Part shown: piece by piece, positions 1 through 64,000 of the stretch
Numbering within the stretch: position 1 is the first letter of the stretch
How the letters are laid out: every line of letters begins with the position of its first letter
Source: Amoebidium appalachense
Lineage: Eukaryota; Protista; Ichthyosporea
DNA: 64,000 nt
Direction: 5' to 3'
NCBI GenBank assembly: GCA_963693365.1
Contig: CAVNZM010000004.1
Location: 9,142,468 to 9,206,467 of the forward strand
Made by a program: the position numbers and the translations under genes
Notes under the pieces: model-generated
What the model was told of the DNA's origin: nothing
Databases searched by the model: none
Seen by the model: the letters and a program-made list of their open reading frames with translations, nothing else

Positions 1-380
1 TTCCACCTGCAATGCAGCTGTTCTGTTGGGCCTGGAACAGTCTGTATGCCCCCCCCCCCCCCCCCCCCCTCCACCAAAGAAAATTGCATTGCTTTTGCGA
101 TCACTCTAGCAGTAGTATTTTGAGAAAAGCCACGGTACACAAGGGTTGCTATTGCAGTTTGATGCAGTCCTGTTGTTTGCGACGCAACGTATCATCCGAT
201 TACTGCAGAGCCCCCCCCCCCCCCCCCCCCCCCCCCCTCCTTCTAGGGTAGATGGACCCTGTTAATGATGGATACCCTGTGCGTGTTCTTTGCGAAATCT
301 GCCTTATGGTGTTCGTCGTGAATGTGCACTTTACACCCTGTGGCACGTTCTATTCCCCCCCCCCCCCCCCCCCCTCTTGT

Positions 381-974
381 GCCCTCCCTGAAGATGGGCT
401 CTGCTTATGACGCATACTTTGCGCATGGCTGATGTTGCATACTTCAATGTTTGCCTTTGCATGTGTCCTGCACGATGCTTCTCATCGTGTATGCGTACTT
501 CGTATCGTGTTTTGCATTTAAACCCCCCCAGTCTTCTTTCAGAGGTGTCCTTTCAGGACAGACCACTGTGTGGAGACATCTTTACTTCCATGCAACCGGG
601 CATGGTTGCTCTGTGTCGTGCATCTGTAAGCACATACGCATTTTTCGCTGCACTGCATTATTTTGCACACACACCTTCACCGTTTTGCTCACCTTGCTTG
701 CATAAGCAACCCTGCTCGTCTTTGATCAAGACGGGTTGACCCACCCAAGTTCAGTTGATGCTGCTGTCTGAATTGGAGCGTCGTATATACGCGGGCTAAG
801 GGGTCGAAACTCAGACGCAATTGATGACTTGGGCCCTCCCTGAGGATGGGCTCTGCTTATGACGCATACTGTGCGCATGGCTGATGTTGCATACTTGAAT
901 GTTTTCCTTTGCATGTGTCCTGCACCATGCTTCTCATCGTGTATGCGTACTTCGTACCGTGTTCCGCATTCAAA
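381..974 (+). mobile_element. Non-autonomous ~452-bp repeat element, copy 1 (5'-truncated unit + full unit), putative Penelope-like/retrozyme element
   Basis: 381-523 repeats at 835-974 (period 452). Ends CATTCAAA + poly-C. Near-identical to 12336-13019 and 47755-48350. No credible ORF. Confidence 0.85.
701..861 (+). ncRNA. Putative permuted hammerhead ribozyme, copy 1 (G>A at 772 in stem III, possibly impaired)
   Basis: Has GTCGAAACTCAGAC, CTCC-CTGAGGA-TGGG and closing helix CATAAGCA/TGCTTATG. Reads GTCTGAATT where other copies have GTCTGAGTT. Confidence 0.6.
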
Positions 975-1370
975 CCCCCCCCCCCCCCCCCCCTCTCCTC
1001 CCCCCCCCCTCCCGCCCCCGCCCTGGCCGCCCACCCGCCCGCCCGCCCGCCTGCGTGCACCTCTTCATAACCTGGGAAGCAAAAGCAAAGGATAAGAATA
1101 AAAGCAACATGGGAAAGAAAGAAAGCCCAGAAGTGTGGGTGCCATTGGTAATGGAGGAGTGAGGGAAAAGAAAGAAGGTAAGCCAAATAACAGAAAGAGG
1201 GAGGGGGAGAAGGAGAACAAAGTGCACAAAAAAGCCCAGCTAGTGCTGTTGATGTTTACCTTTGTACGACAGCTAAAGATGGAGGAAACTTGAAGATAGT
1301 ACTTTTTTTTGTTTATATGTCCTGTTCGGGCTGACACTTGTTGGGGACTAACAAAAAATAACCTATCCAG

Positions 1371-5837: not shown

Positions 5838-7300
5838 AGTCCCCACCACCACCACAGGATGGACTATACATATGATGCATGCTCGTTGTGCGTGCCTTGC
5901 AGTATCTGAATTGTGCTGTCCCACGTGAATGTGTACTTCGTATGGTGCGCGGCGCGATCCCACAAACACAAATGCCCGCGCAACCAAAAATCGGTCGGTA
6001 AAAGGAAATGCGCTCAGGTAAGTGTGGTTTCACACAGTAATGGAACCCCAAAACGCGGTTTTGCAAGTTTCCCGGCATTCAGACACCTGAATTTGTTTAT
6101 GGATTCTTATTTTTCCAAAATGACGTCAAAGTGACGTCATCATGCCTATATTTAGATACAGATGACTTCAGATTACTATTTTTAGCACAACAGTTTTGTC
6201 ACGCACAGACCGGTCACCTATAGCTATACTGTGACCGCCAACGGCCCACAGCGCGTAGCGCGTGTTCAGTTCTGGGCTGAGAGTGAATAGTTCAACCTAA
6301 ATAGATACTTTGCTTAGACAATTCGCTATCTTTTCAGTGATTTCACTATGAGGCCCCCTGTTGCCGAGGACCCAAAGGGGCCTCGCCGCAACACAGCCAA
6401 CGTTGCCCAGATTACGTGTACACGTTCAGAGACTGCATCCTAGCGCCAGCCTGCAAGTCAAACTTTGCGCTTGGGGTGGCAGCAAGTGCTATTGGCATCA
6501 ATGCCCCGTCGTTTTTTAGTCTGTAAAGAAAAATCAGACACAAATAAAAACCAGTGTGGGGAATGTTTGTGTGGGCAACAGGAAAAAAAAAAGAAATACG
6601 AAAACGTGCACACACGAAACGGCCCCGCGCCGGCGCGTACTGCGCCGTACATGTGCGCATTGTGCATGGCTGGCGTCACCGTGAAGCGCATAACCCATAT
6701 TTTAAATTTTAAAGCGACTAGTTTCACTTTAAAATTTTAAAATAGACTTTCTAACTTTAAAGATCACATAGAAGCCTAGCCGATATGTCTTTATCCAGGT
6801 CTTATTTTTCGGGACCAATAGTAAACTTTGAACCCCTATACCTTTTTTCAAAATGCTCACCTCGACTTCGGACTAGGCAAACTTTGGAGAACACATGTCG
6901 GGCTGTCGAATTTGCCTAAAATCAAGTCAATTCCCCTAATTCCAAGGGGACTCAATAATCTGGCGGCCGCCGGGCATTTGTGTTAGTGGGATGGCGACCT
7001 GCGTCATACTATGTAACACATTCAACCCCCCCCCCCCCCCCCCCCCCCCCTGCCCTGCCCTGCCCTGCCCCCGAAGGGGTTAGTGTACTGACACTGAGCA
7101 CCCCTCCTTACGATGTGGAGGTCTGGTTACTTTTTTCTGAGTCTCCGTTTCAGAATCGGTTGTGGGCAAAAAAAAAAAAAAAAAAAGGATTTGGCATGAA
7201 TGAGTCAGTCAAAACATGTACCACACCTGCATTGAATTTTTAGAAATGGAAATACTAAGATAGTTTTGCTAAAGCACTTCATTTTCTGACAGCCACATAG

Positions 7301-12122: not shown

Positions 12123-12335
12123 CACACACACATACACCTCACTACATCCTCCTTCTTACGTTAAGCTCGTTCCTTCCCATCCTGCACTGTGATGACTCTC
12201 TCTCTCTCCGTAAACCCATACACGGCAAAAGTTACAGCTTCTCTTCTAGCCTCCTTGGCCTCCTATCACAAACAAGCAGCATAACACTACTACAACACAA
12301 ACGCATGCACCCACTGTTCATGTCCCCCCCCCCCC

Positions 12336-13017
12336 CCCAAGTTCAGTTGATGCTGCTGTCTGAGTTGGAGCGTCGTATATACGCGGGCTAAGGGGTCGAA
12401 ACTCAGACGCAATTGATGACTTGGGCCCTCCCTGAGGATGGGCTCTGCTTATGACGCATACTGTGCGCATGGCTGATGCTGCATACTTGAATGTTTGCCT
12501 TTGCATGTGTCCTGCACCATGCTTCTCATCGTGTATGCGTACTTCGTACTGTGTTCCGCATTCAAAACCCCCCCTGTCTTCTTTCAGAGGTGTCCTTTCA
12601 GGACAGACCACTGTGTGGAGACATCTTTACTTCCATGCAACCGGGCATGGTTGCTCTGTGTCGTGCATCTGTAAGCACATACGCATTTGTCGCTGCACTG
12701 CATTAGTTTGCACATACATCTTCACCGTTTTGCTCACCTTGCTTGCATAAGCAACCCTGCTCGTCTTTGATCAAGACGGGTTGACCCACCCAAGTTCAGT
12801 TGATGCTGCTGTCTGAGTTGGAGCGTCGTATATACGCGGGCTAAGGGGTCGAAACTCAGACGCAATTGATGACTTGGGCCCTCCCTGAGGATGGGCTCTG
12901 CTTATGACGCATACTGTGCGCATGGCTGATGCTGCATACTTGAATGTTTGCCTTTGCATGTGTCCTGCACCATGCTTCTCATCGTGTATGCGTACTTCGT
13001 ACTGTGTTCCGCATTCA

Positions 13018-13019
<2 letters not shown>
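12336..13019 (+). mobile_element. Non-autonomous ~453-bp repeat element, copy 2 (about 1.5 units), inserted in poly-C
   Basis: Period 453 (12451 vs 12904). Starts inside a poly-C run and ends CATTCAAA + poly-C. Its 5' truncation point differs from copies 1 and 3. Confidence 0.85.
12746..12906 (+). ncRNA. Putative non-circularly permuted hammerhead ribozyme, copy 2 (intact core)
   Basis: Stem III GTCTGAGT (12811-18) / ACTCAGAC (12854-61). Predicted cleavage after U12819 (GUU). Stem I GGAG (12820-23) / CTCC (12881-84). CTGAGGA at 12885-91. Stem II GACCC (12783-87) / GGGTC (12846-50). GAAA at 12851-54. Confidence 0.7.
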
Positions 13020-13049
<30 letters not shown>

Positions 13050-15238: not shown

Positions 15239-18200
15239 CTATAATTTTGTAGTGATGTGTTTCTCAAGCCAATCAATACATCTAATAAACAGGTCGTAGT
15301 TACGCGTGTTTAGTATAAAATCAAGGATGTTGTAATTTACAGGTAGGCTATCTTTCTGGGTGTCTGTTGTGAATGTGACGTGTGTGTGTTGCGGTATTAT
15401 GTGGTCTATCAAACTACATTTGGCGATACATGACCGGTTAAACTGGTGTGTGTGTGTGTTGTTTGGGCATGCAAATGATGCCACCTTATACTTATTAGAT
15501 CTCCACTGTATAGCACGTGTACAGTAAAAGCGTGGTAATTGATCAATAATACCATCAGCTAGAGAAAGACCAGTTCTACAGGAAGGTAATATGTATTTAG
15601 GTGTTATACACTTGCGAGTGCCATATTTGGCAATATGGTTGAGGCGGTCAGTATATATAAAACGAGACATAAGGCTTAGTTTTTCAAGGTGTATGCTTTC
15701 ATCGGGTCTAGTGTCGTGTGGTATCTTTTTCCATTTGTTATATTGCGTGATTATCTTGTGATTGTGTACATGTTTAATAAGTAAGTGGCAGTCCAAAGTC
15801 ACACACACACTATTGCGGGGTTTATTTGTATTTGTGCCCAGGGGAGAAGGGGAGAGAGAGGGGAGGAAAGAGGGGAGAGGTGAGGAGGGGACAGGTCGGA
15901 TAGAGAAGAGAGGGTGGGAGGGCAAATACTTCTTTAAGCGGCTTATGTGCTTATTGAATTTCAGCGCGAGATAGGATACTCTAGCAGCTATTGGGACCAG
16001 ACCATATATCGAGAGCGTTACAGGCCCAGGTTTACAACAGTTGTTAGATAGAAAGGAGGCAACTTCTGCTTCAAGGAAGGGTTTAAGCGCTCTAGTTCTC
16101 TCTTTCTTGATCCAAGCGGCGAGAAGGGGTAAACCATATTCACATGCCGGGAAGACAAAAGTGCGAATAAATGTAAGTCTAATAGAAGGATGGAGGGGTG
16201 TGTCTTTAAAAATATTAGCCGAGAAGAAAGCTAACCGCTTACGAGCCAACTCTACCCTCTTTTCGACCATATGGGGAAACATAACACCAACAGAATCAAC
16301 CGGAACACCAAGATATTTGTATTCTGGAACTATAGGTACAGGTTTAGATGATAATGTAAATGTGTGTAAATTGTTAGCTATATCAGGTACAAGAACACCA
16401 CATTTGTCTATGTTAAGGATCATAAGGTTTGCCTTGCACCACTCTGACACTACATCGAACAATCTTTGCAGGCGTCTAGGGGTACGGGCAAGGAGGGACA
16501 GATCATCAGCATAGAGAAGTGCAGGCGGAAAGTTATTAATAGGGTCATCGTTTTCGGCGTAAATCTTGACAGCCAAATCATCTATAAATAGGTTAAACAA
16601 AAAGGGGCTAAGCAATGAACCCTGCAAGAGACCTCTAGTACGAGCAAAACCATATGAAAGATGCCCATTAACCACAGCTCTACCATAGGTTTGAGACAAG
16701 AGTGCTTCTAACAGAACACCAATGCAGTGTGGTACACCCCGTGCAGCAAGCTTTTCCCATAGGAGACCAGGGGAGACAGAATCGTAAGCAGTTTTCCAAT
16801 CAATAAAGCCAACATATTGTGCACCAACTTGCATAGAATCGTGCAGTGCCATTATTTGAACATAACATGAATTGTTTTTACGAAAAGCGGATTGGCATGG
16901 GTGTATGTGAAGAATAGATTGAAACCTAGGGTGATGTGCAAATAACCTAAGTAAGCAAGCTTCAAAGAATCTACGAACAACCTGGGTTAGTGTAATGGGG
17001 CGAAAGGATGATATGGGGCCCTCAGAGTCCTTCTTAACTATGGGGATCACTAAGGTATCTAACCAAGATGACGGGACATGTCCACATTTAACACACCAAG
17101 AAAAGAGAGAGCTTAACATGATAGTAAGATCAGGTTTAATAGCACGATCACTTTCCTTTTGTGGGTAGGAGGGAACAAGGATTTTAAGAAACCCAGCAGG
17201 GAGTCCATCAGGTCCACAAGACTTACTAGAGCTATAACTAGATATCACAGACCATATGGCATCGGGACTGAAAAAGGGGAGGATCGATTCTATGGGGATA
17301 GATGGGTCTACAGGCCACACAATAGGTTTCTGAGCGGGGGTCCTATCTTTAAACAGTTCCGAGAAATACTTATCAGAGTCTATGAGGGGGTCTCCAGTGG
17401 TATCACCAATAATACGAGCAGGGGGGCCAAATCGATTCATACTAGCAAGCCGGCGCAAGCTTTCCTTTTGAGACAGGGGTTCACCTAGTCTAGCGGGAGT
17501 GGTGTTTGGTAACAAGAGAGCATCGGGATATTCCTTCCTACCACCGCCAGCATAATCACCGAGATCTATCAAATCATCAACAATAAAGTTAGTGCATGTA
17601 TCTAGTACGAGATGTGAATCTGGCCTGGCTTGTGCAGATTCTAATAGGCGCATATATATAGGGTGTTTCATAGCATAGCATACACATACATCAACTCTAC
17701 CCCACTGTGACTTAAGCTGGGATAGACGGAGGCGAAAGGTGGGAGGGGGAGGGGGGAGCAGATCAAGGGAGATCTTAGGTAGGAAAAGGATAGGAGAGTG
17801 GTCAGATGACCTAGAGAGGTTAGGAGGGAGAGAGAGTTTTGACATGGTTGATGGCCAAAAGGCCACTCCCCAGTCGGTGTTGTGGGCATGGGATATTTGA
17901 GGGAACCGCAAAGTGTGACTTTGGACATACCTTGCTAAAGGGATAGCACGCTCCGGGGGCTTAGATGGGTACCCGACACTCACTTGCAGTGTGTCTGTGT
18001 GGTGGAGTCGCGTGTTAAAATCACCTAAAATAACAGTGGACATTGGTAACTGTGACAACTCGTGAGTCAATTCGACAACCGACATAGATGGTGGGTAATA
18101 TACAAAAGTAAAAACATTAGAAAGAAACTCTATAGAAACCGAGAATTCCGTTTTTGCTACCGGTTTGCACTTCACTCTCACGTGTGGTGCGGCAAGTACA

Positions 18201-18424
18201 ATAATGCCTCGGTTTTTCGCGTAACCGGGGTGTGTGGATGTGTCGACCAATGTAGAGTTGAATTTGTGGTGGTTTTTAAACTGTGTTTCGCAAATCACTG
18301 TAAACGTGTGGTTGTTTGTCTGTTGTTGTATGTAGCTGATTTTATCGTCGAGTGTCCCGGGGGGGAGGCCCTTTTGGGGGCCCAGTGTCCGAGCATTCCA
18401 GAAGAAGAAGGATAAATTAGGCAT
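15239..18424 (-). CDS. ORF2: apurinic-like endonuclease + reverse transcriptase (1061 aa)
   Basis: APE motifs FWNARTL, ICETQ, ILGDFN, SSDHSPI. RT motifs KSCGPDG, FRPITL, FIDWKTAYDSV, GLLQGSLLSPFLFN, LYADD, YKYLGV. Confidence 0.97.
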   Translation of the reverse strand: MPNLSFFFWNARTLGPQKGLPPGTLDDKISYIQQQTNNHTFTVICETQFKNHHKFNSTLVDTSTHPGYAKNRGIIVLAAPHVRVKCKPVAKTEFSVSIEFLSNVFTFVYYPPSMSVVELTHELSQLPMSTVILGDFNTRLHHTDTLQVSVGYPSKPPERAIPLARYVQSHTLRFPQISHAHNTDWGVAFWPSTMSKLSLPPNLSRSSDHSPILFLPKISLDLLPPPPPTFRLRLSQLKSQWGRVDVCVCYAMKHPIYMRLLESAQARPDSHLVLDTCTNFIVDDLIDLGDYAGGGRKEYPDALLLPNTTPARLGEPLSQKESLRRLASMNRFGPPARIIGDTTGDPLIDSDKYFSELFKDRTPAQKPIVWPVDPSIPIESILPFFSPDAIWSVISSYSSSKSCGPDGLPAGFLKILVPSYPQKESDRAIKPDLTIMLSSLFSWCVKCGHVPSSWLDTLVIPIVKKDSEGPISSFRPITLTQVVRRFFEACLLRLFAHHPRFQSILHIHPCQSAFRKNNSCYVQIMALHDSMQVGAQYVGFIDWKTAYDSVSPGLLWEKLAARGVPHCIGVLLEALLSQTYGRAVVNGHLSYGFARTRGLLQGSLLSPFLFNLFIDDLAVKIYAENDDPINNFPPALLYADDLSLLARTPRRLQRLFDVVSEWCKANLMILNIDKCGVLVPDIANNLHTFTLSSKPVPIVPEYKYLGVPVDSVGVMFPHMVEKRVELARKRLAFFSANIFKDTPLHPSIRLTFIRTFVFPACEYGLPLLAAWIKKERTRALKPFLEAEVASFLSNNCCKPGPVTLSIYGLVPIAARVSYLALKFNKHISRLKKYLPSHPLFSIRPVPSSPLPSFLPSLSPSPLGTNTNKPRNSVCVTLDCHLLIKHVHNHKIITQYNKWKKIPHDTRPDESIHLEKLSLMSRFIYTDRLNHIAKYGTRKCITPKYILPSCRTGLSLADGIIDQLPRFYCTRAIQWRSNKYKVASFACPNNTHTHQFNRSCIAKCSLIDHIIPQHTHVTFTTDTQKDSLPVNYNILDFILNTRNYDLFIRCIDWLEKHITTKL

Positions 18425-18914
18425 CGGTTTGGTCCGACACCTGTGGGGTTGGTTCCCACTTGTCGCTTACGGGGTCGTATGCACGACCTTCCGCCAGCGC
18501 GAACAGTTCGCAGAAGAGCTCGATTTCCATCTCGCATCGGCGTTTGCGCTCGAGCAGTTTCTCACCAGAAAACATTGGTTCCTTCGTGTCCGTGTCTATC
18601 ACGCTCGTAGCATCGTTTTCCAACTTTGCGAGGAACTCTTTTGCCTTGCTGATGCGTACACGACAACGTGTGGCGCACGCATTCTTAGCAGACACTTTAC
18701 GTTCTTTGTCTGCTTTCTGAATGTTTTCCGGCGCGCATGGGTCGTAGCTTGGGAGGTGGGTGAAGAAGCTTCCACACCCCTTTGTCGCGTCACGGATGAA
18801 CGCACGGTTATAGTCGCCCCGTACTGCTACTTCCAGCACATCATATATAATGCGTTGTTTGCCGGACCTCAAATCCGGAATCTGGAGGGGACCTAAGGCC
18901 ATTTTGTGAGGCAT
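18417..18914 (-). CDS. ORF1 of the non-LTR element (~165 aa, basic, probably coiled-coil)
   Basis: Complex-sequence ORF directly upstream of ORF2. Its TAA overlaps the ORF2 start (ATGCCTAA). Confidence 0.7.
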   Translation of the reverse strand: MPHKMALGPLQIPDLRSGKQRIIYDVLEVAVRGDYNRAFIRDATKGCGSFFTHLPSYDPCAPENIQKADKERKVSAKNACATRCRVRISKAKEFLAKLENDATSVIDTDTKEPMFSGEKLLERKRRCEMEIELFCELFALAEGRAYDPVSDKWEPTPQVSDQTDA

Positions 18915-19380
18915 CAAAAACCATCGAAACGTTGCTTAGTTGTTTTTATGACATCAAAATCGCTAAATACTCTTGCGATACTAATGAAAAAGCCTAAAAT
19001 AACTAAATATTTGATAATGAGAAAATTGAAATATAGTGCCCTAAAGTTGGGCCCGAGAGGATGTACGTACTCGGGGCTTTGAAATAAAAAGAAAAAAACC
19101 AGCGGTTTCGGAGTCTACTGTGAACACGCTGGGCTGAATGACGGCAGAGGTCAGGTGATTCCCGTATCAAAACGTTTTTTTTAATTTCTAACCCAGAGTG
19201 GAACGCACTTTCTTTTAGAGAAATTCGGCGACATTTTTTTTTACAAAGTACTATATCATTGGTACAACGACATTTTGAAAATTTTAATGAAATAGAACTA
19301 CCAATCCAATCACAAAAACCTCAAAGGTCTGCTAACACCGGTTTAGGGGGACACGGGGATGAGGACGGCAAATTCTATAT

Positions 19381-19461
<81 letters not shown>

Positions 19462-19726
19462 GGCCTGTGGCACACACACAGTTACAACGCCAAGTTACGT
19501 GTAGCAGCAAGATGCATTTATTTCTACCCGTACGCAAAAAAAAGGGCGGGGGGGGGGGGGGGGGGGGGAAGCGTGAGGCGGGGGGGCCAGGGAGGGGGGG
19601 GGGGAGGGAGGTAACAACCACACAACCCAACATCCCAACAACCCAACATCAATAACTGTCTCGTTATGTTTTGGCGCCGGCGACAGCCGTTATGACAGAC
19701 CTACTTGTATCTTTAAAGACTTAGAA

Positions 19727-20896
<1,170 letters not shown>

Positions 20897-31666: not shown

Positions 31667-41848
<10,182 letters not shown>

Positions 41849-46433: not shown

Positions 46434-47112
46434 TTAAAAGGGACCGACCGCCTGAGTAGAGGTAAAAACGTCGCACGTGCGGCAACACGTCAGTACGTGT
46501 TAGTGGATTTTGCAGGATTTGACCGGTTATAGTCCTTTGAGCGACTGTCTCCCTGCGGCCGGGCTCAACATACCTTGTTTGTTGCCGCAGGCGACAGTCA
46601 CTAGACAAAGTTTCTGATTGCGCAAACAAATTATTTAAATTTACAGCACATGATTGGTTCAAAGTCGCATTAATAGTTTAATAGGAATTAAGGAAGCGTT
46701 GCTATTGTGTAACAACAATTTAGGTAAGTGTTCCTATTGCCCAACAGAAAATACAGCATTCCTATTGGACCTACAAGATAACCAAGCGTTTCGATTGCCC
46801 AACAGGAATTCATAGACCCAACCGGAGACGTCCCGCGGCGTAGTAGTGCTATTTCTATATCGTTTTCCTGAGTTCAGTTCGTTACTATGATATACTATTT
46901 ATACTGGGGGGGGGGGGAGTGCTAATATATCAGTTTCTCATTTCAATAACAAGTCATTAGAAGAAAGAACCATTCTTCTTGCTTGCAGGCCAACCAACCA
47001 GCCTGACAACTATGCTTTCGAGCTGCTGAAAAGTTAAAGCAAGTTTGGAGGGCTTCAAACCCACATAGCAACAGGCTTCCTTCTATCTCTTCCGCCCACG
47101 GCCAAAGCTACG

Positions 47113-60671
<13,559 letters not shown>

Positions 60672-61802: not shown

Positions 61803-62180
61803 CTGAGATACATCGCTATATTGTTGAATTTCGAAGTTTTAATGAATAGAAACGGACGTTTTGCACTTCAATGGTGGGGTTTTTGCTTGTTTTGGGCTCT
61901 TTTTCGAGCTCTCCTTTGGGTATCTCATGAAGTTCGCCGAAATGAACGGTATCCGAATCCGATCTCAATCACGGAGATTTCGATTACGCCGATTTGGAGA
62001 CCGATGTTTACATTTCGAATATGGAATTCGGCTGTTAGCGGGCACGGTGTAGCCTACACCGTTCACTTCGCCACATGTACACAAACTTACACGAAATCAA
62101 GTGTTTTCATACTCTGGCACACTCTTACATTCTCAGGTGTAGCACACAGCAACTGTACGCATAGGCGTGTGGTTGTTCAG

Positions 62181-64000
62181 ATGCACGCAAAGGTGTCTTG
62201 CAGATGGGGCCGCCGCCGCTTTCTCCTTATCCTATTCCCCGTGGTTTTGTACTTCCTTCTTCGCACCACACACTTCAAACACAACACTTACCAGCTAGCA
62301 CTAAGGCCACATGACGCTAGATGTGAGGGATTTTCATGCAGCAATTGTGATCCTCAACCACACACCTATTTGAAGTGTATAGATGGTGTTTGGCGAAAAG
62401 ACTGCACGATAGCAGACCTGTGCACCTCTGGAGATGCACCCTTTCCCAACCAAACCACATACCCAAAAAAGGAGGATTTCGAAGCATTTGCACCCTACGG
62501 GCCACTTGTAGGGAGAAATGCAGCCTCTCCCTCACATGAGAACTCGAAGTTGGCCGTGGTGTTCGTCGTGGACGGATCTAACGTTCGTGATGCAGTTGAA
62601 TCTGTAAGGAAATGGGGGCAGGATGGGAGTCGGCCGTGTGAAATCGGGCAGCAGAGGCAACAAGCGGAGTTGGTGTTTTTCGGAGAGGCAAAACATGCGC
62701 AAAGAGCCTACCAGGAGTATGCCCAGGTAGATGGATTATCCTCCTGTTTCACACGTGTACAACTTCTAAGCGAAAAACGCTCTTCAATTCCCACATTACT
62801 GCAGCTGTTTGAGGTGCACGGGACGAATGGTTTCAAGCCGGATTTCGTTTTCATATTGGACCCTTCAGTCACCCCGGTTCGGAACGGCTGGCTAAAGAAG
62901 GTTAAGGAGGAAACACACGATGCCTCCTACTATTGGGTTAAGGGGACCATAAGACACCATGACAACACGCGGGAACTCAGATACTCGCACATTGGCAGTT
63001 ACGACCACACGTTTTTCGCGTTGCACCCGGCTGCAATTTACAACTTCTGGGATCCATATTTTCGTAATTTTACCGAACAAATCCATCAGAAGGAAAAGTG
63101 GTCGGGGCCATGGTTTGCAAGTAGGCAGCAGAGAGACGTGTGGTTTAGCGGCCAAATAGCGGAGTATGTTTGGGGAAACCATAATCACGTAAAGCTTTTC
63201 TTGAATTTTTTCGTCTATAGCAACTTTCTACTCAACGAACCACGGCCTTTTCTTCGCCACGCACTATCGCCAAACACGTTTTTTGTGGTCAACCTTATGC
63301 TTGAGTCTGAGTGCAGCACGGGCACTAGCCCATCGGGCAAGGTCTGTGATTTCCAAATGTCGTATTCCGAAAACAAAAACCCCGGAATCACGAAAGAAAA
63401 CCGGAGACCTACGGAGCCACGACTAGCCATCGTTATGCCATACACAACCAAGCAAGTGACTTTCGCCGTTCTAGCCGTCGGTTTTTGGCACAAGAAGTGG
63501 CCATGTAGCGAAAAAACGAAAGGAAAACCGGATTTAATTCTCCAGGGGCCCTCCGTGATGAATAATCGTTTGCTGGGCACCATCACGCGTTTTGCCCCCG
63601 TTTCGCAGTGTTTTCGTCGCGTTTTTTGGCGAAACAGCACCCTTCCCCCCGAAATTGACACGTACGAGTATGGCCCCCCTGTGCTGTTTTTCGATATGAT
63701 GTCGTCTGATTTAAGGCACGAATATGACTATGTGTATATGATGGAGCCCGACACGAGCCCCTTAACCGGACAGTGGCTGGATAGGGTATATGCGGAGCTG
63801 GAGGATTCAAGTCCATTTTGGGTTAAGGGTAACATCGGCGTGCATTTTGACGAGTCAGACGCCGTTGGGGGGACCTATTTTATGGGAAAACCCGGAGAGC
63901 CCTTACCGTTTCAGCCGATCGGGCCGCGTATTTTGCATATTAATGGTAATGGTATATACAATTTATGGGATGATGAATTTGCTCTGTTTTTACAGAATTT
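62181..64000 (+). CDS. Intronless type II membrane protein with two tandem glycosyltransferase-like domains; 3'-partial
   Basis: Open from ATG 62181 to the window end by manual translation (absent from the track because there is no stop). N-terminal RRRFLLILFPVVLYFLL anchor. Repeat 1 DFVFILDPSVTPVRNGWL..YWVKG..AAIYNFWD; repeat 2 DYVYMMEPDTSPLTGQWL..FWVKG..HINGNGIYNLWD. Confidence 0.85.
   Translation, partial: MHAKVSCRWGRRRFLLILFPVVLYFLLRTTHFKHNTYQLALRPHDARCEGFSCSNCDPQPHTYLKCIDGVWRKDCTIADLCTSGDAPFPNQTTYPKKEDFEAFAPYGPLVGRNAASPSHENSKLAVVFVVDGSNVRDAVESVRKWGQDGSRPCEIGQQRQQAELVFFGEAKHAQRAYQEYAQVDGLSSCFTRVQLLSEKRSSIPTLLQLFEVHGTNGFKPDFVFILDPSVTPVRNGWLKKVKEETHDASYYWVKGTIRHHDNTRELRYSHIGSYDHTFFALHPAAIYNFWDPYFRNFTEQIHQKEKWSGPWFASRQQRDVWFSGQIAEYVWGNHNHVKLFLNFFVYSNFLLNEPRPFLRHALSPNTFFVVNLMLESECSTGTSPSGKVCDFQMSYSENKNPGITKENRRPTEPRLAIVMPYTTKQVTFAVLAVGFWHKKWPCSEKTKGKPDLILQGPSVMNNRLLGTITRFAPVSQCFRRVFWRNSTLPPEIDTYEYGPPVLFFDMMSSDLRHEYDYVYMMEPDTSPLTGQWLDRVYAELEDSSPFWVKGNIGVHFDESDAVGGTYFMGKPGEPLPFQPIGPRILHINGNGIYNLWDDEFALFLQN

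What the first reader, a model, noticed from the sequence alone, without database searches (positions are those of the whole stretch)
12746..12906. Hammerhead ribozyme core in a non-circularly permuted, pseudoknotted topology, supported by covariation
Seen: a ~160-nt module (also 701-861, 48077-48237, divergent 56498-56651) has all hammerhead core strands. Their order is stem II strand GACCC, then stem III-GUU-stem I strand (GTCTGAGTT|GGAG), a small hairpin, GGGTC-GAAA-CTCAGAC, and finally CTCC-CTGAGGA. The divergent copy keeps CTGAGGA, CGAAAC and GAGTT unchanged while partner strands change together: GACCC/GGGTC becomes GACCTA/TAGGTC, GGAG/CTCC becomes GGG/CCC, CCCAAGT/ACTTGGG becomes CCCATGT/ACGTGGG, and the stem III extension is rebuilt. 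G-U pairs point to the + strand. Known: type I/II/III hammerheads all share the cyclic order NUH strand, CUGANGA strand, GAAA strand; here GAAA comes before CUGANGA, so no circular permutation gives it. Natural non-circularly permuted hammerheads have been reported but are rare, and I cannot check whether this one is among them. Inference: a self-cleaving RNA whose 5'/3' closing helix (CATAAGCA/TGCTTATG) and an extra hairpin sit between A9 and stem II, which standard descriptors would miss.
Basis: partly seen in the sequence, partly recalled or inferred. Interest (0 to 1): 0.92.

Follow-up and report, generated by a model that had tools for sequence, protein, structure and literature searches.

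The report
Split-core hammerhead in Penelope-like repeat
A short repeat, likely a jumping element in a single-celled relative of animals, carries every part of a hammerhead self-cutting RNA in a scrambled order also readable at the ends of several Naiad retroelements reported to lack one, and its predicted shape suggests it would cut only when two copies pair.

Summary
The module is real. All 13 hammerhead core positions are kept between two diverged families, and five base pairs change compensatorily. A descriptor hits 4 times in the window and 0 times in 30 shuffles.

The block order is the published non-circular type SGC. But the stem II 5' strand is not next to A9: a closing helix and a hairpin are inserted there, which the published six-permutation scheme excludes.

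By eye, the same layout ends 9 Naiad Penelope-like consensus sequences (6 sequence types, 4 animal phyla) reported to lack canonical hammerheads. The scan's earlier notes report this layout on other DNA too.

Here it sits in a 453-bp non-coding unit, inserted in poly-C as 5'-truncated partial tandems. Host proteins match Amoebidium parasiticum.

Additions here: a predicted kink-turn, a 16-layer stem III arm too long for monomer folding by rough estimate, and two conserved palindromes. These suggest a two-copy ribozyme. Cleavage (predicted after 12819), expression and the mobilising element are untested.

New variant of a known kind; interest 0.8.

The parts
12332..13019 (+). Element B: 1.5 head-to-tail copies of a 453-bp non-coding unit, flanked by poly-C, fixed 3' end, truncated 5' end
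376..975 (+). Element A (1.3 units); module 701-861 has a mismatch at stem III position 16.2
47755..48352 (+). Element C (1.3 units); module 48077-48237; one change breaks the linker palindrome
56300..56738 (+). Element D, diverged family 2, about one unit (5' end approximate); module 56498-56652
12746..12753 (+). P0 5' strand, pairs 12899-12906 and closes the module; CCC 12755-57 may pair GGG 12893-95
12759..12781 (+). P5 hairpin; 7-nt loop holds the 6-nt palindrome UGAUCA in both families
12783..12787 (+). Stem II 5' strand (G10.1 = 12783), displaced from A9; pairs 12846-12850
12789..12794 (+). P4 5' strand, pairs 12873-12878; joins the distal ends of stems I and II, as the interaction helix of type SGC does (equivalence inferred)
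12796..12803 (+). Predicted kink-turn, bulged strand: 3-bp C helix, 3-nt bulge, G.A and A.G pairs with 12868-12872
12811..12823 (+). Block S: stem III 5' strand, U16.1, U17, stem I 5' strand; predicted cut after 12819 (56569 in family 2)
12827..12836 (+). Perfect 10-nt palindrome in the S-G linker; family 2 has a different 10-nt palindrome at 56575-56584
12846..12861 (+). Block G: stem II 3' strand, GAAA, stem III 3' strand
12881..12891 (+). Block C without its stem II strand: stem I 3' strand and CUGAGGA
12332..12453 (+). 5'-truncated second module in element B (blocks S, G, C present; P5 and the stem II 5' strand absent), 453 nt upstream
13012..13020 (+). Fixed 3' terminus CATTCAAAC running into poly-C, shared by 4 of 4 elements

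Best explanation
The module holds all hammerhead core strands in the order S-G-C with the stem II 5' strand moved upstream, inside a 453-bp repeat that is likely a non-autonomous Penelope-like element, and it is predicted to cut after GUU (12819), most likely only when two copies assemble. Shown by sequence: the core, the stems, compensatory changes, a kink-turn sequence pattern, two palindromes, and partial tandems in poly-C. Inferred: helices P0 and P5 are inserted at the A9/G10.1 step. P4, the kink-turn and stem III form a bent rod whose tip (blocks S and G) cannot reach its own base (block C and the stem II strand). So the tip of one unit would dock on the base of another, helped by the palindromes. 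Tandem transcripts would then be cut to 453-nt units, while a lone unit or circle would stay intact. A Penelope-like reverse transcriptase would copy the RNA from its C-tract into genomic C/G tracts, giving more-than-unit copies with a fixed 3' end. Rough odds: hammerhead fold under selection 0.9; cleaves 0.8; needs two copies about 0.6 if it cleaves; Penelope-type mobilisation 0.75.
For: Core 0 of 13 changed against 22 of 47 unpaired columns. 5 compensatory pairs. Descriptor 4 hits against 0 in 30 shuffles. Stem II via the upstream strand is stronger than via the strand after A9: -8.5 and -7.0 against -5.4 and -2.2 kcal/mol. The same layout with unrelated stems can be read by eye in 9 Naiad records, and in several of them A9 is followed directly by P0 with no U-G, so G10.1 must come from upstream. 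The kink-turn pattern has 16 layers on the stem III side and 9 bp on the P4 side in both families, with 0 of 5 key positions changed; the two octopus Naiad ends have a kink-turn pattern at the same junction, reversed, with a 5-bp stem III. Estimated monomer gap is 47-59 A here against 19-32 A for a 5/9 arm. There are two different perfect 10-nt linker palindromes (387 and 218 of 20000 shuffles). The P5 loop holds a 6-nt palindrome here and in 3 of 6 Naiad types (by eye). The three common variants that family 2 does not explain (12788, 12824, 12879) all fall on linker positions (P = 0.024). Precedent for dimeric hammerheads that spare monomeric circles: PMC4209133. 4 of 4 elements share the 3' end at a C-tract and 3 of 4 are partial tandems; Chlamys elements target (C)n, and 5 of 6 such ends seen finish in AACCCC.
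Against: No cleavage data. Window covariation comes from two families only. The geometry is a coarse triangle estimate using recalled helix dimensions, not a 3D model, and Eckert et al. saw a similar distance problem in type-SGC RNAs that did cleave. The kink-turn descriptor also hits 115 and 119 of 2000 shuffles, and its -1b:-1n pair is A:U, which is rare in ribosomal k-turns (0.2%). Copy 48077 has lost the linker palindrome. The Naiad versions have 0-6 nt linkers and mostly short arms compatible with a monomer, and 3 of 6 types lack a perfect P5 palindrome. Stem I is only 3-4 bp. No autonomous Penelope-like element lies in the window, and the 6 Chlamys ends seen show no such motif.
Confidence: 0.5

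Rival explanations
1. Same split-core hammerhead, but it folds and cuts as a monomer. The rod bends or partly melts so that P4 reaches stems I and II.
For: Most Naiad versions have short arms that fit a monomer by the same estimate. Published type-SGC RNAs cleave despite a similar distance puzzle. The middle of the family 1 rod is weak (U.U, G.U, C.A).
Against: Family 2 has 12 continuous pairs in stem III. P4 forms with probability 0.93-0.94 and covaries. The estimated gap is 47-59 A against about 31 A of slack. The palindromes would be unexplained.
Confidence: 0.3
2. Ordinary type SGC: G10.1 is G12893, directly after CUGAGGA-U, and the upstream GACCC strand is an inhibitory or auxiliary partner. 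In a hybrid form the two strands share stem II, switching at a G.G mismatch.
For: CUGAGGA-U-G matches the spacing of the published SGC descriptor. The contiguous register gives G-C, G.U, mismatch, C-G, U.G in family 1. The octopus ends also have UGG after A9.
Against: The duplex is weaker and has two mismatches in family 2. The compensatory C-G to U-A change involves the upstream strand. Naiad records of Beroe, Clytia, Acropora, Morbakka and Pomphorhynchus have no U-G after A9 yet keep the upstream strand.
Confidence: 0.08
3. A non-cleaving relic or protein-binding scaffold: the structure is kept for recognition by the reverse transcriptase or an L7Ae-family protein, not for catalysis.
For: Penelope-type minimal hammerheads cleave poorly in vitro. 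All more-than-unit copies read through the predicted cut site. The core is opened at A9/G10.1.
Against: Every catalytic position is kept between families, and the core motifs and an N-U-H site recur in 6 Naiad sequence types with unrelated stems.
Confidence: 0.12

Closest known systems
Type-SGC hammerhead ribozyme (HRIMA-1 and variants; Eckert et al. 2023, PMC10085705)
   Same: Block order S-G-C; intact core; an extra helix joining the distal ends of stems I and II.
   Different: Block C is split and the stem II strand lies 5' of block S. P0 and P5 are inserted at A9/G10.1. S-G linker is 22 and 18 nt (descriptor 0-8). G-C linker is 19 and 16 nt (descriptor 0-15). [quoted passage not shown]
Naiad Penelope-like elements (Craig et al. 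2021, PMC8557442), reported to lack canonical hammerheads; some flagged HHR_core or HHR_half_core
   Same: By eye, the same P0-P5-II-P4-S-G-C layout near the 3' end of 9 consensus records; 5' truncation and partial tandems.
   Different: The paper gives no structure for these cores in the passages read. Naiads are autonomous, animal, often (TA)n-targeted, with short linkers. This element is non-coding, (C)n-inserted, long-armed and likely from an ichthyosporean.
Chlamys Penelope-like elements and their non-autonomous forms (same paper)
   Same: (C)n targeting, AACCCC 3' ends, head-to-tail non-autonomous copies.
   Different: No such motif seen in the last ~560 nt of 6 (C)n-targeting Chlamys consensus records.
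Non-LTR retrozymes and dimeric (double) hammerheads (PMC7229834, PMC4209133, bioRxiv 10.64898/2026.07.22.740005)
   Same: Few-hundred-base non-coding tandem units with one hammerhead each; dimer-dependent cleavage with palindromic loops; proposed Penelope origin.
   Different: Those carry type I hammerheads made dimer-dependent by a short stem III. Here stem III is long, and any dimer need would come from strand order and arm length.
Standard kink-turn (Kt-7 and box C/D types; PMC5061560, PMC5689011)
   Same: 3-nt bulge, G.A and A.G pairs; 3b.3n is U.U in family 1 (box C/D-like) and A.G in family 2 (Kt-7-like).
   Different: -1b:-1n is A:U and the C helix is broken by a bulge after 3 bp; folding and protein binding untested.

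Membership tests
Hammerhead ribozyme | CUGANGA, GAAA and U16.1-H17 core | tested here: met
   0 of 13 changed between families
Hammerhead ribozyme | Stems I, II, III with A15.1-U16.1 and G10.1-C11.1 | tested here: met
   G10.1 supplied by the upstream strand; two families only
Hammerhead ribozyme | A9 within 0-2 nt of G10.1 on one strand | tested here: not met
   P0 and P5 intervene; rule stated in PMC10085705
Hammerhead ribozyme | Match to an Rfam hammerhead model | tested here: not met
   none among 37 matches at E<=1
Hammerhead ribozyme | Site-specific, core-dependent self-cleavage | not testable with these tools
   needs in vitro transcription
Type-SGC hammerhead | Block order S, G, C | tested here: met
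Type-SGC hammerhead | Uninterrupted block C (stem I strand, core, stem II strand) | tested here: not met
Type-SGC hammerhead | Linkers within the published descriptor (0-8 and 0-15 nt) | tested here: not met
   22/18 and 19/16 nt
Type-SGC hammerhead | Helix joining the distal ends of stems I and II | tested here: met
   P4, one pair changed on both sides; equivalence is my inference
Kink-turn | 3-nt bulge, tandem G.A/A.G, Watson-Crick C helix | tested here: met
   against the definition; descriptor background about 6%
Kink-turn | Kinked fold or L7Ae/15.5K binding | not testable with these tools
   -1b:-1n = A:U is atypical
Non-autonomous Penelope-like element | 5' truncation, fixed 3' end, partial tandems | tested here: met
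   3 of 4 partial tandems, 4 of 4 same 3' end
Non-autonomous Penelope-like element | Microsatellite (C)n targeting as in Chlamys | tested here: met
   4 of 4 end in C-tracts
Non-autonomous Penelope-like element | 3' similarity to an autonomous element of the same genome | not testable with these tools
   no genome held; none seen in the window
Non-LTR retrozyme | Type I hammerhead in each unit | tested here: not met
   order is S-G-C; definition
Non-LTR retrozyme | Unit-length linear and circular RNA in vivo | not testable with these tools
   only contigs available

The most novel reading that the evidence does not exclude
A hammerhead wiring outside the six published permutations, opened inside its catalytic core, is the hidden ribozyme of many N-terminal-endonuclease Penelope-like elements and reaches beyond animals. 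In this lineage it has become a two-copy sensor: a kink-turn and one extra helical turn block monomer folding, palindromes pair two units, and only tandem transcripts are cut.
Probability: 0.35. Interest if true: 0.92.

Novelty: new variant of a known kind. Interest (0 to 1): 0.8.

Why it matters
It would break the assumption that the CUGANGA block cannot be interrupted, on which the six-permutation scheme and current search descriptors rest. It offers a testable answer to why Naiad elements seemed to lack hammerheads. It places non-circularly permuted hammerheads in eukaryotic DNA, likely including a non-animal holozoan. If two copies are needed, it is a natural ribozyme gated by geometry, with a tolerated insertion point in the core that RNA engineers could use.

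Tried and rejected

Rfam: no ribozyme. tRNA scan: 0.

Viral contigs: 0 hits with two patterns. Metagenome scan: 2 hits, which read as chance matches in bacterial-looking coding DNA (my reading, not annotated).

Sequencing runs: no RNA holder listed. Run X12 is only guessed to be RNA, so says nothing on expression. Contig depths were not used as copy numbers.

RNAcofold prefers a strand-swapped dimer by 11-12 kcal/mol, but linker-shuffled controls give nearly the same (-10.3 and -11.9; 9 and 2 of 60 as low) and the palindrome-broken copy gives -9.9. It is therefore not evidence for a dimer. The predicted pairing of the two palindromes in element B (0.97) had no control and was not counted either.

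The circular 453-nt unit folds no better than shuffles to any clear degree (-139.7 against -133.0, sd 5.8).

Twister and HDV readings of the module were considered by eye and dropped.

The LINE at 15239-18466 ends in poly-A, not poly-C, so it was rejected as the partner.

A loose-end consensus with 0.64 agreement was not used as a variant.

Literature searches that found no description of this layout: non-circular permutation + hammerhead, type-SGC (50), hammerhead + kink-turn (35), dimer/palindromic/Penelope (36), domain-swapped dimer (64), Naiad + ribozyme (81), Amoebidium + Penelope (88, 0 papers), and the Eckert supplement (53). The library lacks most subscription journals.

Full report
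1. Observation. The module is at 12746-12906 as described, with near-identical copies at 701-861 and 48077-48237, a diverged family-2 copy at 56498-56652 and a 5'-truncated copy at 12332-12453. Listing the pairs confirms P0, P5, stem II (12783-87/12846-50), P4, stem III, H17 = U12819, stem I (12820-23/12881-84), GAAA and CUGAGGA (family-2 P0 corrected). Between the families, 0 of 13 core, 17 of 96 paired and 22 of 47 unpaired columns differ. On the 4-row alignment, 97.4% of 194 cells pair and 5 of 49 pairs change on both sides; 1 of 500 shuffles reaches this and slid structures give 0-1. This is one comparison between two families. My S-G-C descriptor hit 4 times on the + strand, 0 on the - strand and 0 in 30 shuffles; the 701 copy fails through a stem III mismatch. 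Rfam has no ribozyme among 37 matches.

2. Relation to published permutations. Eckert et al. (PMC10085705; read: abstract, methods, results parts 3-4, first part of the discussion, supplement parts 1 and 8 and a term search) divide the hammerhead into blocks S, G and C, assume none can be interrupted, and validate type SGC by cleavage. The window's order is S-G-C, and P4 joins the distal ends of stems I and II as their interaction helix does (my inference). But the stem II 5' strand lies upstream of block S, with P0 and P5 between A9 and G10.1, and the linkers exceed their descriptor limits. A rival exists: CUGAGGA-U-G could supply G10.1 directly. That register is weaker (-5.4 and -2.2 against -8.5 and -7.0 kcal/mol) and has a G.G mismatch at pair 3. 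That hammerheads tolerate a bulged nucleotide between 9 and 10.1 is stated in PMC4209133 (passages).

3. The same layout in Naiad elements. Craig et al. (PMC8557442; read: abstract, passages, supplement part 1 and term searches) report that Naiad and most Chlamys elements lack canonical hammerheads, flagging 10 cores and 8 half-cores. I read consensus ends by eye. The order P0, P5, stem II strand, P4, S, G, P4', C, P0' appears in 9 records: Beroe (Bfor), Clytia (Naiad-3_Chem), three Acropora, Morbakka (Naiad-2_Movir), Pomphorhynchus (Plae) and two octopus records. That is 6 sequence types in 4 phyla, with unrelated stems. Names come from the next header and the file order; two Acropora names and Obim rest on order alone. 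I saw the 3' ends of about 23 of 54 Naiad records; the rest were covered only by motif searches (60 of 61 places shown for three 7-mers; line breaks hide some). Other Naiad ends differ: none seen in Mley, Omin, Dcar, Chem1, Chem2, Dst3 or Esco; twister-like motifs in two; CUGANGA before GAAA in nematode and spider records. I first read these last as canonical; after note e1-10585213 I re-read Naiad-3_Nbra and found its cleavage strand inside loop II (type CSG). Four earlier scan notes report the split layout on other DNA. I saw them after reaching this reading and do not count them as support.

4. Kink-turn and geometry. Between P4 and stem III both families have a 3-bp Watson-Crick helix, a 3-nt bulge ending in U, and G.A/A.G pairs, with 3b.3n U.U or A.G. 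This fits the definition in PMC5061560 (passages and section 13). Both have 16 layers to A15.1-U16.1 and 9 bp on the P4 side, although the intervening sequence is rebuilt. Against: the descriptor hits about 6% of shuffled modules, and -1b:-1n = A:U is atypical (PMC5689011, abstract and sections 11, 13). The octopus ends have the pattern at the same junction, reversed, with a 5-bp stem III, 11 layers shorter. With stems II and III stacked, a 30-60 degree kink (50) and recalled dimensions (2.8 A per pair, 6.5 A per nucleotide), the base of P4 lies 47-59 A from the end of stem II. About 31 A of slack is available; a 5/9 arm gives 19-32 A. This is a coarse estimate, and it shrinks to 29 A if stem II were bent 90 degrees.

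5. Palindromes. The S-G linker holds a perfect 10-nt palindrome in 3 of 4 family-1 modules and a different one in family 2 (387 and 218 of 20000 shuffles). The P5 loop holds UGAUCA in both families, and by eye a U-NNNN-A palindrome in the P5 loop of Beroe, Clytia and Morbakka, but not of octopus or Pomphorhynchus and only imperfectly of Acropora. Dimer-dependent hammerheads with palindromic loops, active in tandem and silent in monomeric circles, are known. Cofolding energies did not discriminate.

6. Element and host. The module lies in a 453-bp non-coding unit present as 1.3-1.5 head-to-tail copies (376-975, 12332-13019, 47755-48352) or about one unit (family 2, 80% alike in the module only). 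All 4 end at CATTCAAAC plus a C-tract and begin in C-rich sequence. Contigs of public runs join the unit's end to its start. The element is held by 20 of 24 listed runs under six organism labels, and thousands of distinct contigs lay on each family in some runs (4,824; 10,221). In one search, seven module positions varied at 5% or more. Four match family 2; the other three are linker positions (P = 0.024). Partial tandems, 5' truncation and (C)n targeting match Chlamys elements, 5 of 6 of whose ends seen finish in AACCCC, though none of the six shows the motif. Retrozyme context: PMC7229834 (passages) and bioRxiv 10.64898/2026.07.22.740005 (parts 1-2 of 5; its supplements were not read). A LINE protein (98%) and a Sec1-family exon (100% over 71% of the query) match EukProt proteins of Amoebidium parasiticum. 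That this is an ichthyosporean, a single-celled relative of animals, is recalled. No autonomous partner was found in the window, and none could be searched for.

7. Mechanism. Shown: anatomy, conservation, context. Inferred: a transcript through tandem units folds each into a bent rod; the tip of one unit docks on the base of another, forming a core that cuts after GUU and releases 453-nt units; single units or circles persist; a Penelope-like reverse transcriptase primes at the C-tract and copies past unit length. Confidence 0.5 for the whole chain, 0.3 for a monomeric cutter, 0.12 for a non-cleaving scaffold, 0.08 for ordinary SGC.

8. Verdict. It works like a hammerhead, but it is not a member of type SGC or of the type I retrozymes by the features tested. 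I found no description in the searches named under Tried and rejected. New variant of a known kind; interest 0.8.

Noticed in passing
window 15239-18935 (-): Apparently intact LINE: 1075-aa reading frame with an RT domain, a short upstream frame, a (CA)n and poly-A tail; 98% identical to an EukProt Amoebidium protein. A truncated second copy lies near 19724-20896.
   Followed up: partly
window 5856-5942 (+): Degenerate 3' fragment, 72% like family 2, next to a poly-C/poly-A tract; possibly a third, older family.
   Followed up: no
table 5c (run X1): A 36-nt insert shows a third sequence variant of the G-to-C part of the module, with a different stem III strand but the same kink-turn and P4 positions.
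   Followed up: no
PMC8557442 supplement, ends of Naiad-1_Movir and Naiad-4_Chem: Twister-like motifs by eye, suggesting Naiads swap ribozyme classes at the same position.
   Followed up: no
PMC8557442 supplement, end of Naiad-3_Nbra: Type-CSG hammerhead by eye, with a 9-bp stem I-II helix.
   Followed up: partly
window 47100-60100 (+): Intron-rich Sec1-family gene (Pfam PF00995 on the matching protein); elements C and D appear to lie in its introns.
   Followed up: partly
window 61809-64000 (+): Long uninterrupted reading frame (over 700 aa) with an internal repeat, unlike the intron-rich neighbours; not searched.
   Followed up: no
window 35000-35680: Tandem array of a roughly 31-bp unit.
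   Followed up: no
whole window: Very dense poly-C/poly-G and (CA)n tracts, which supply many targets for a (C)n-inserting element.
   Followed up: no
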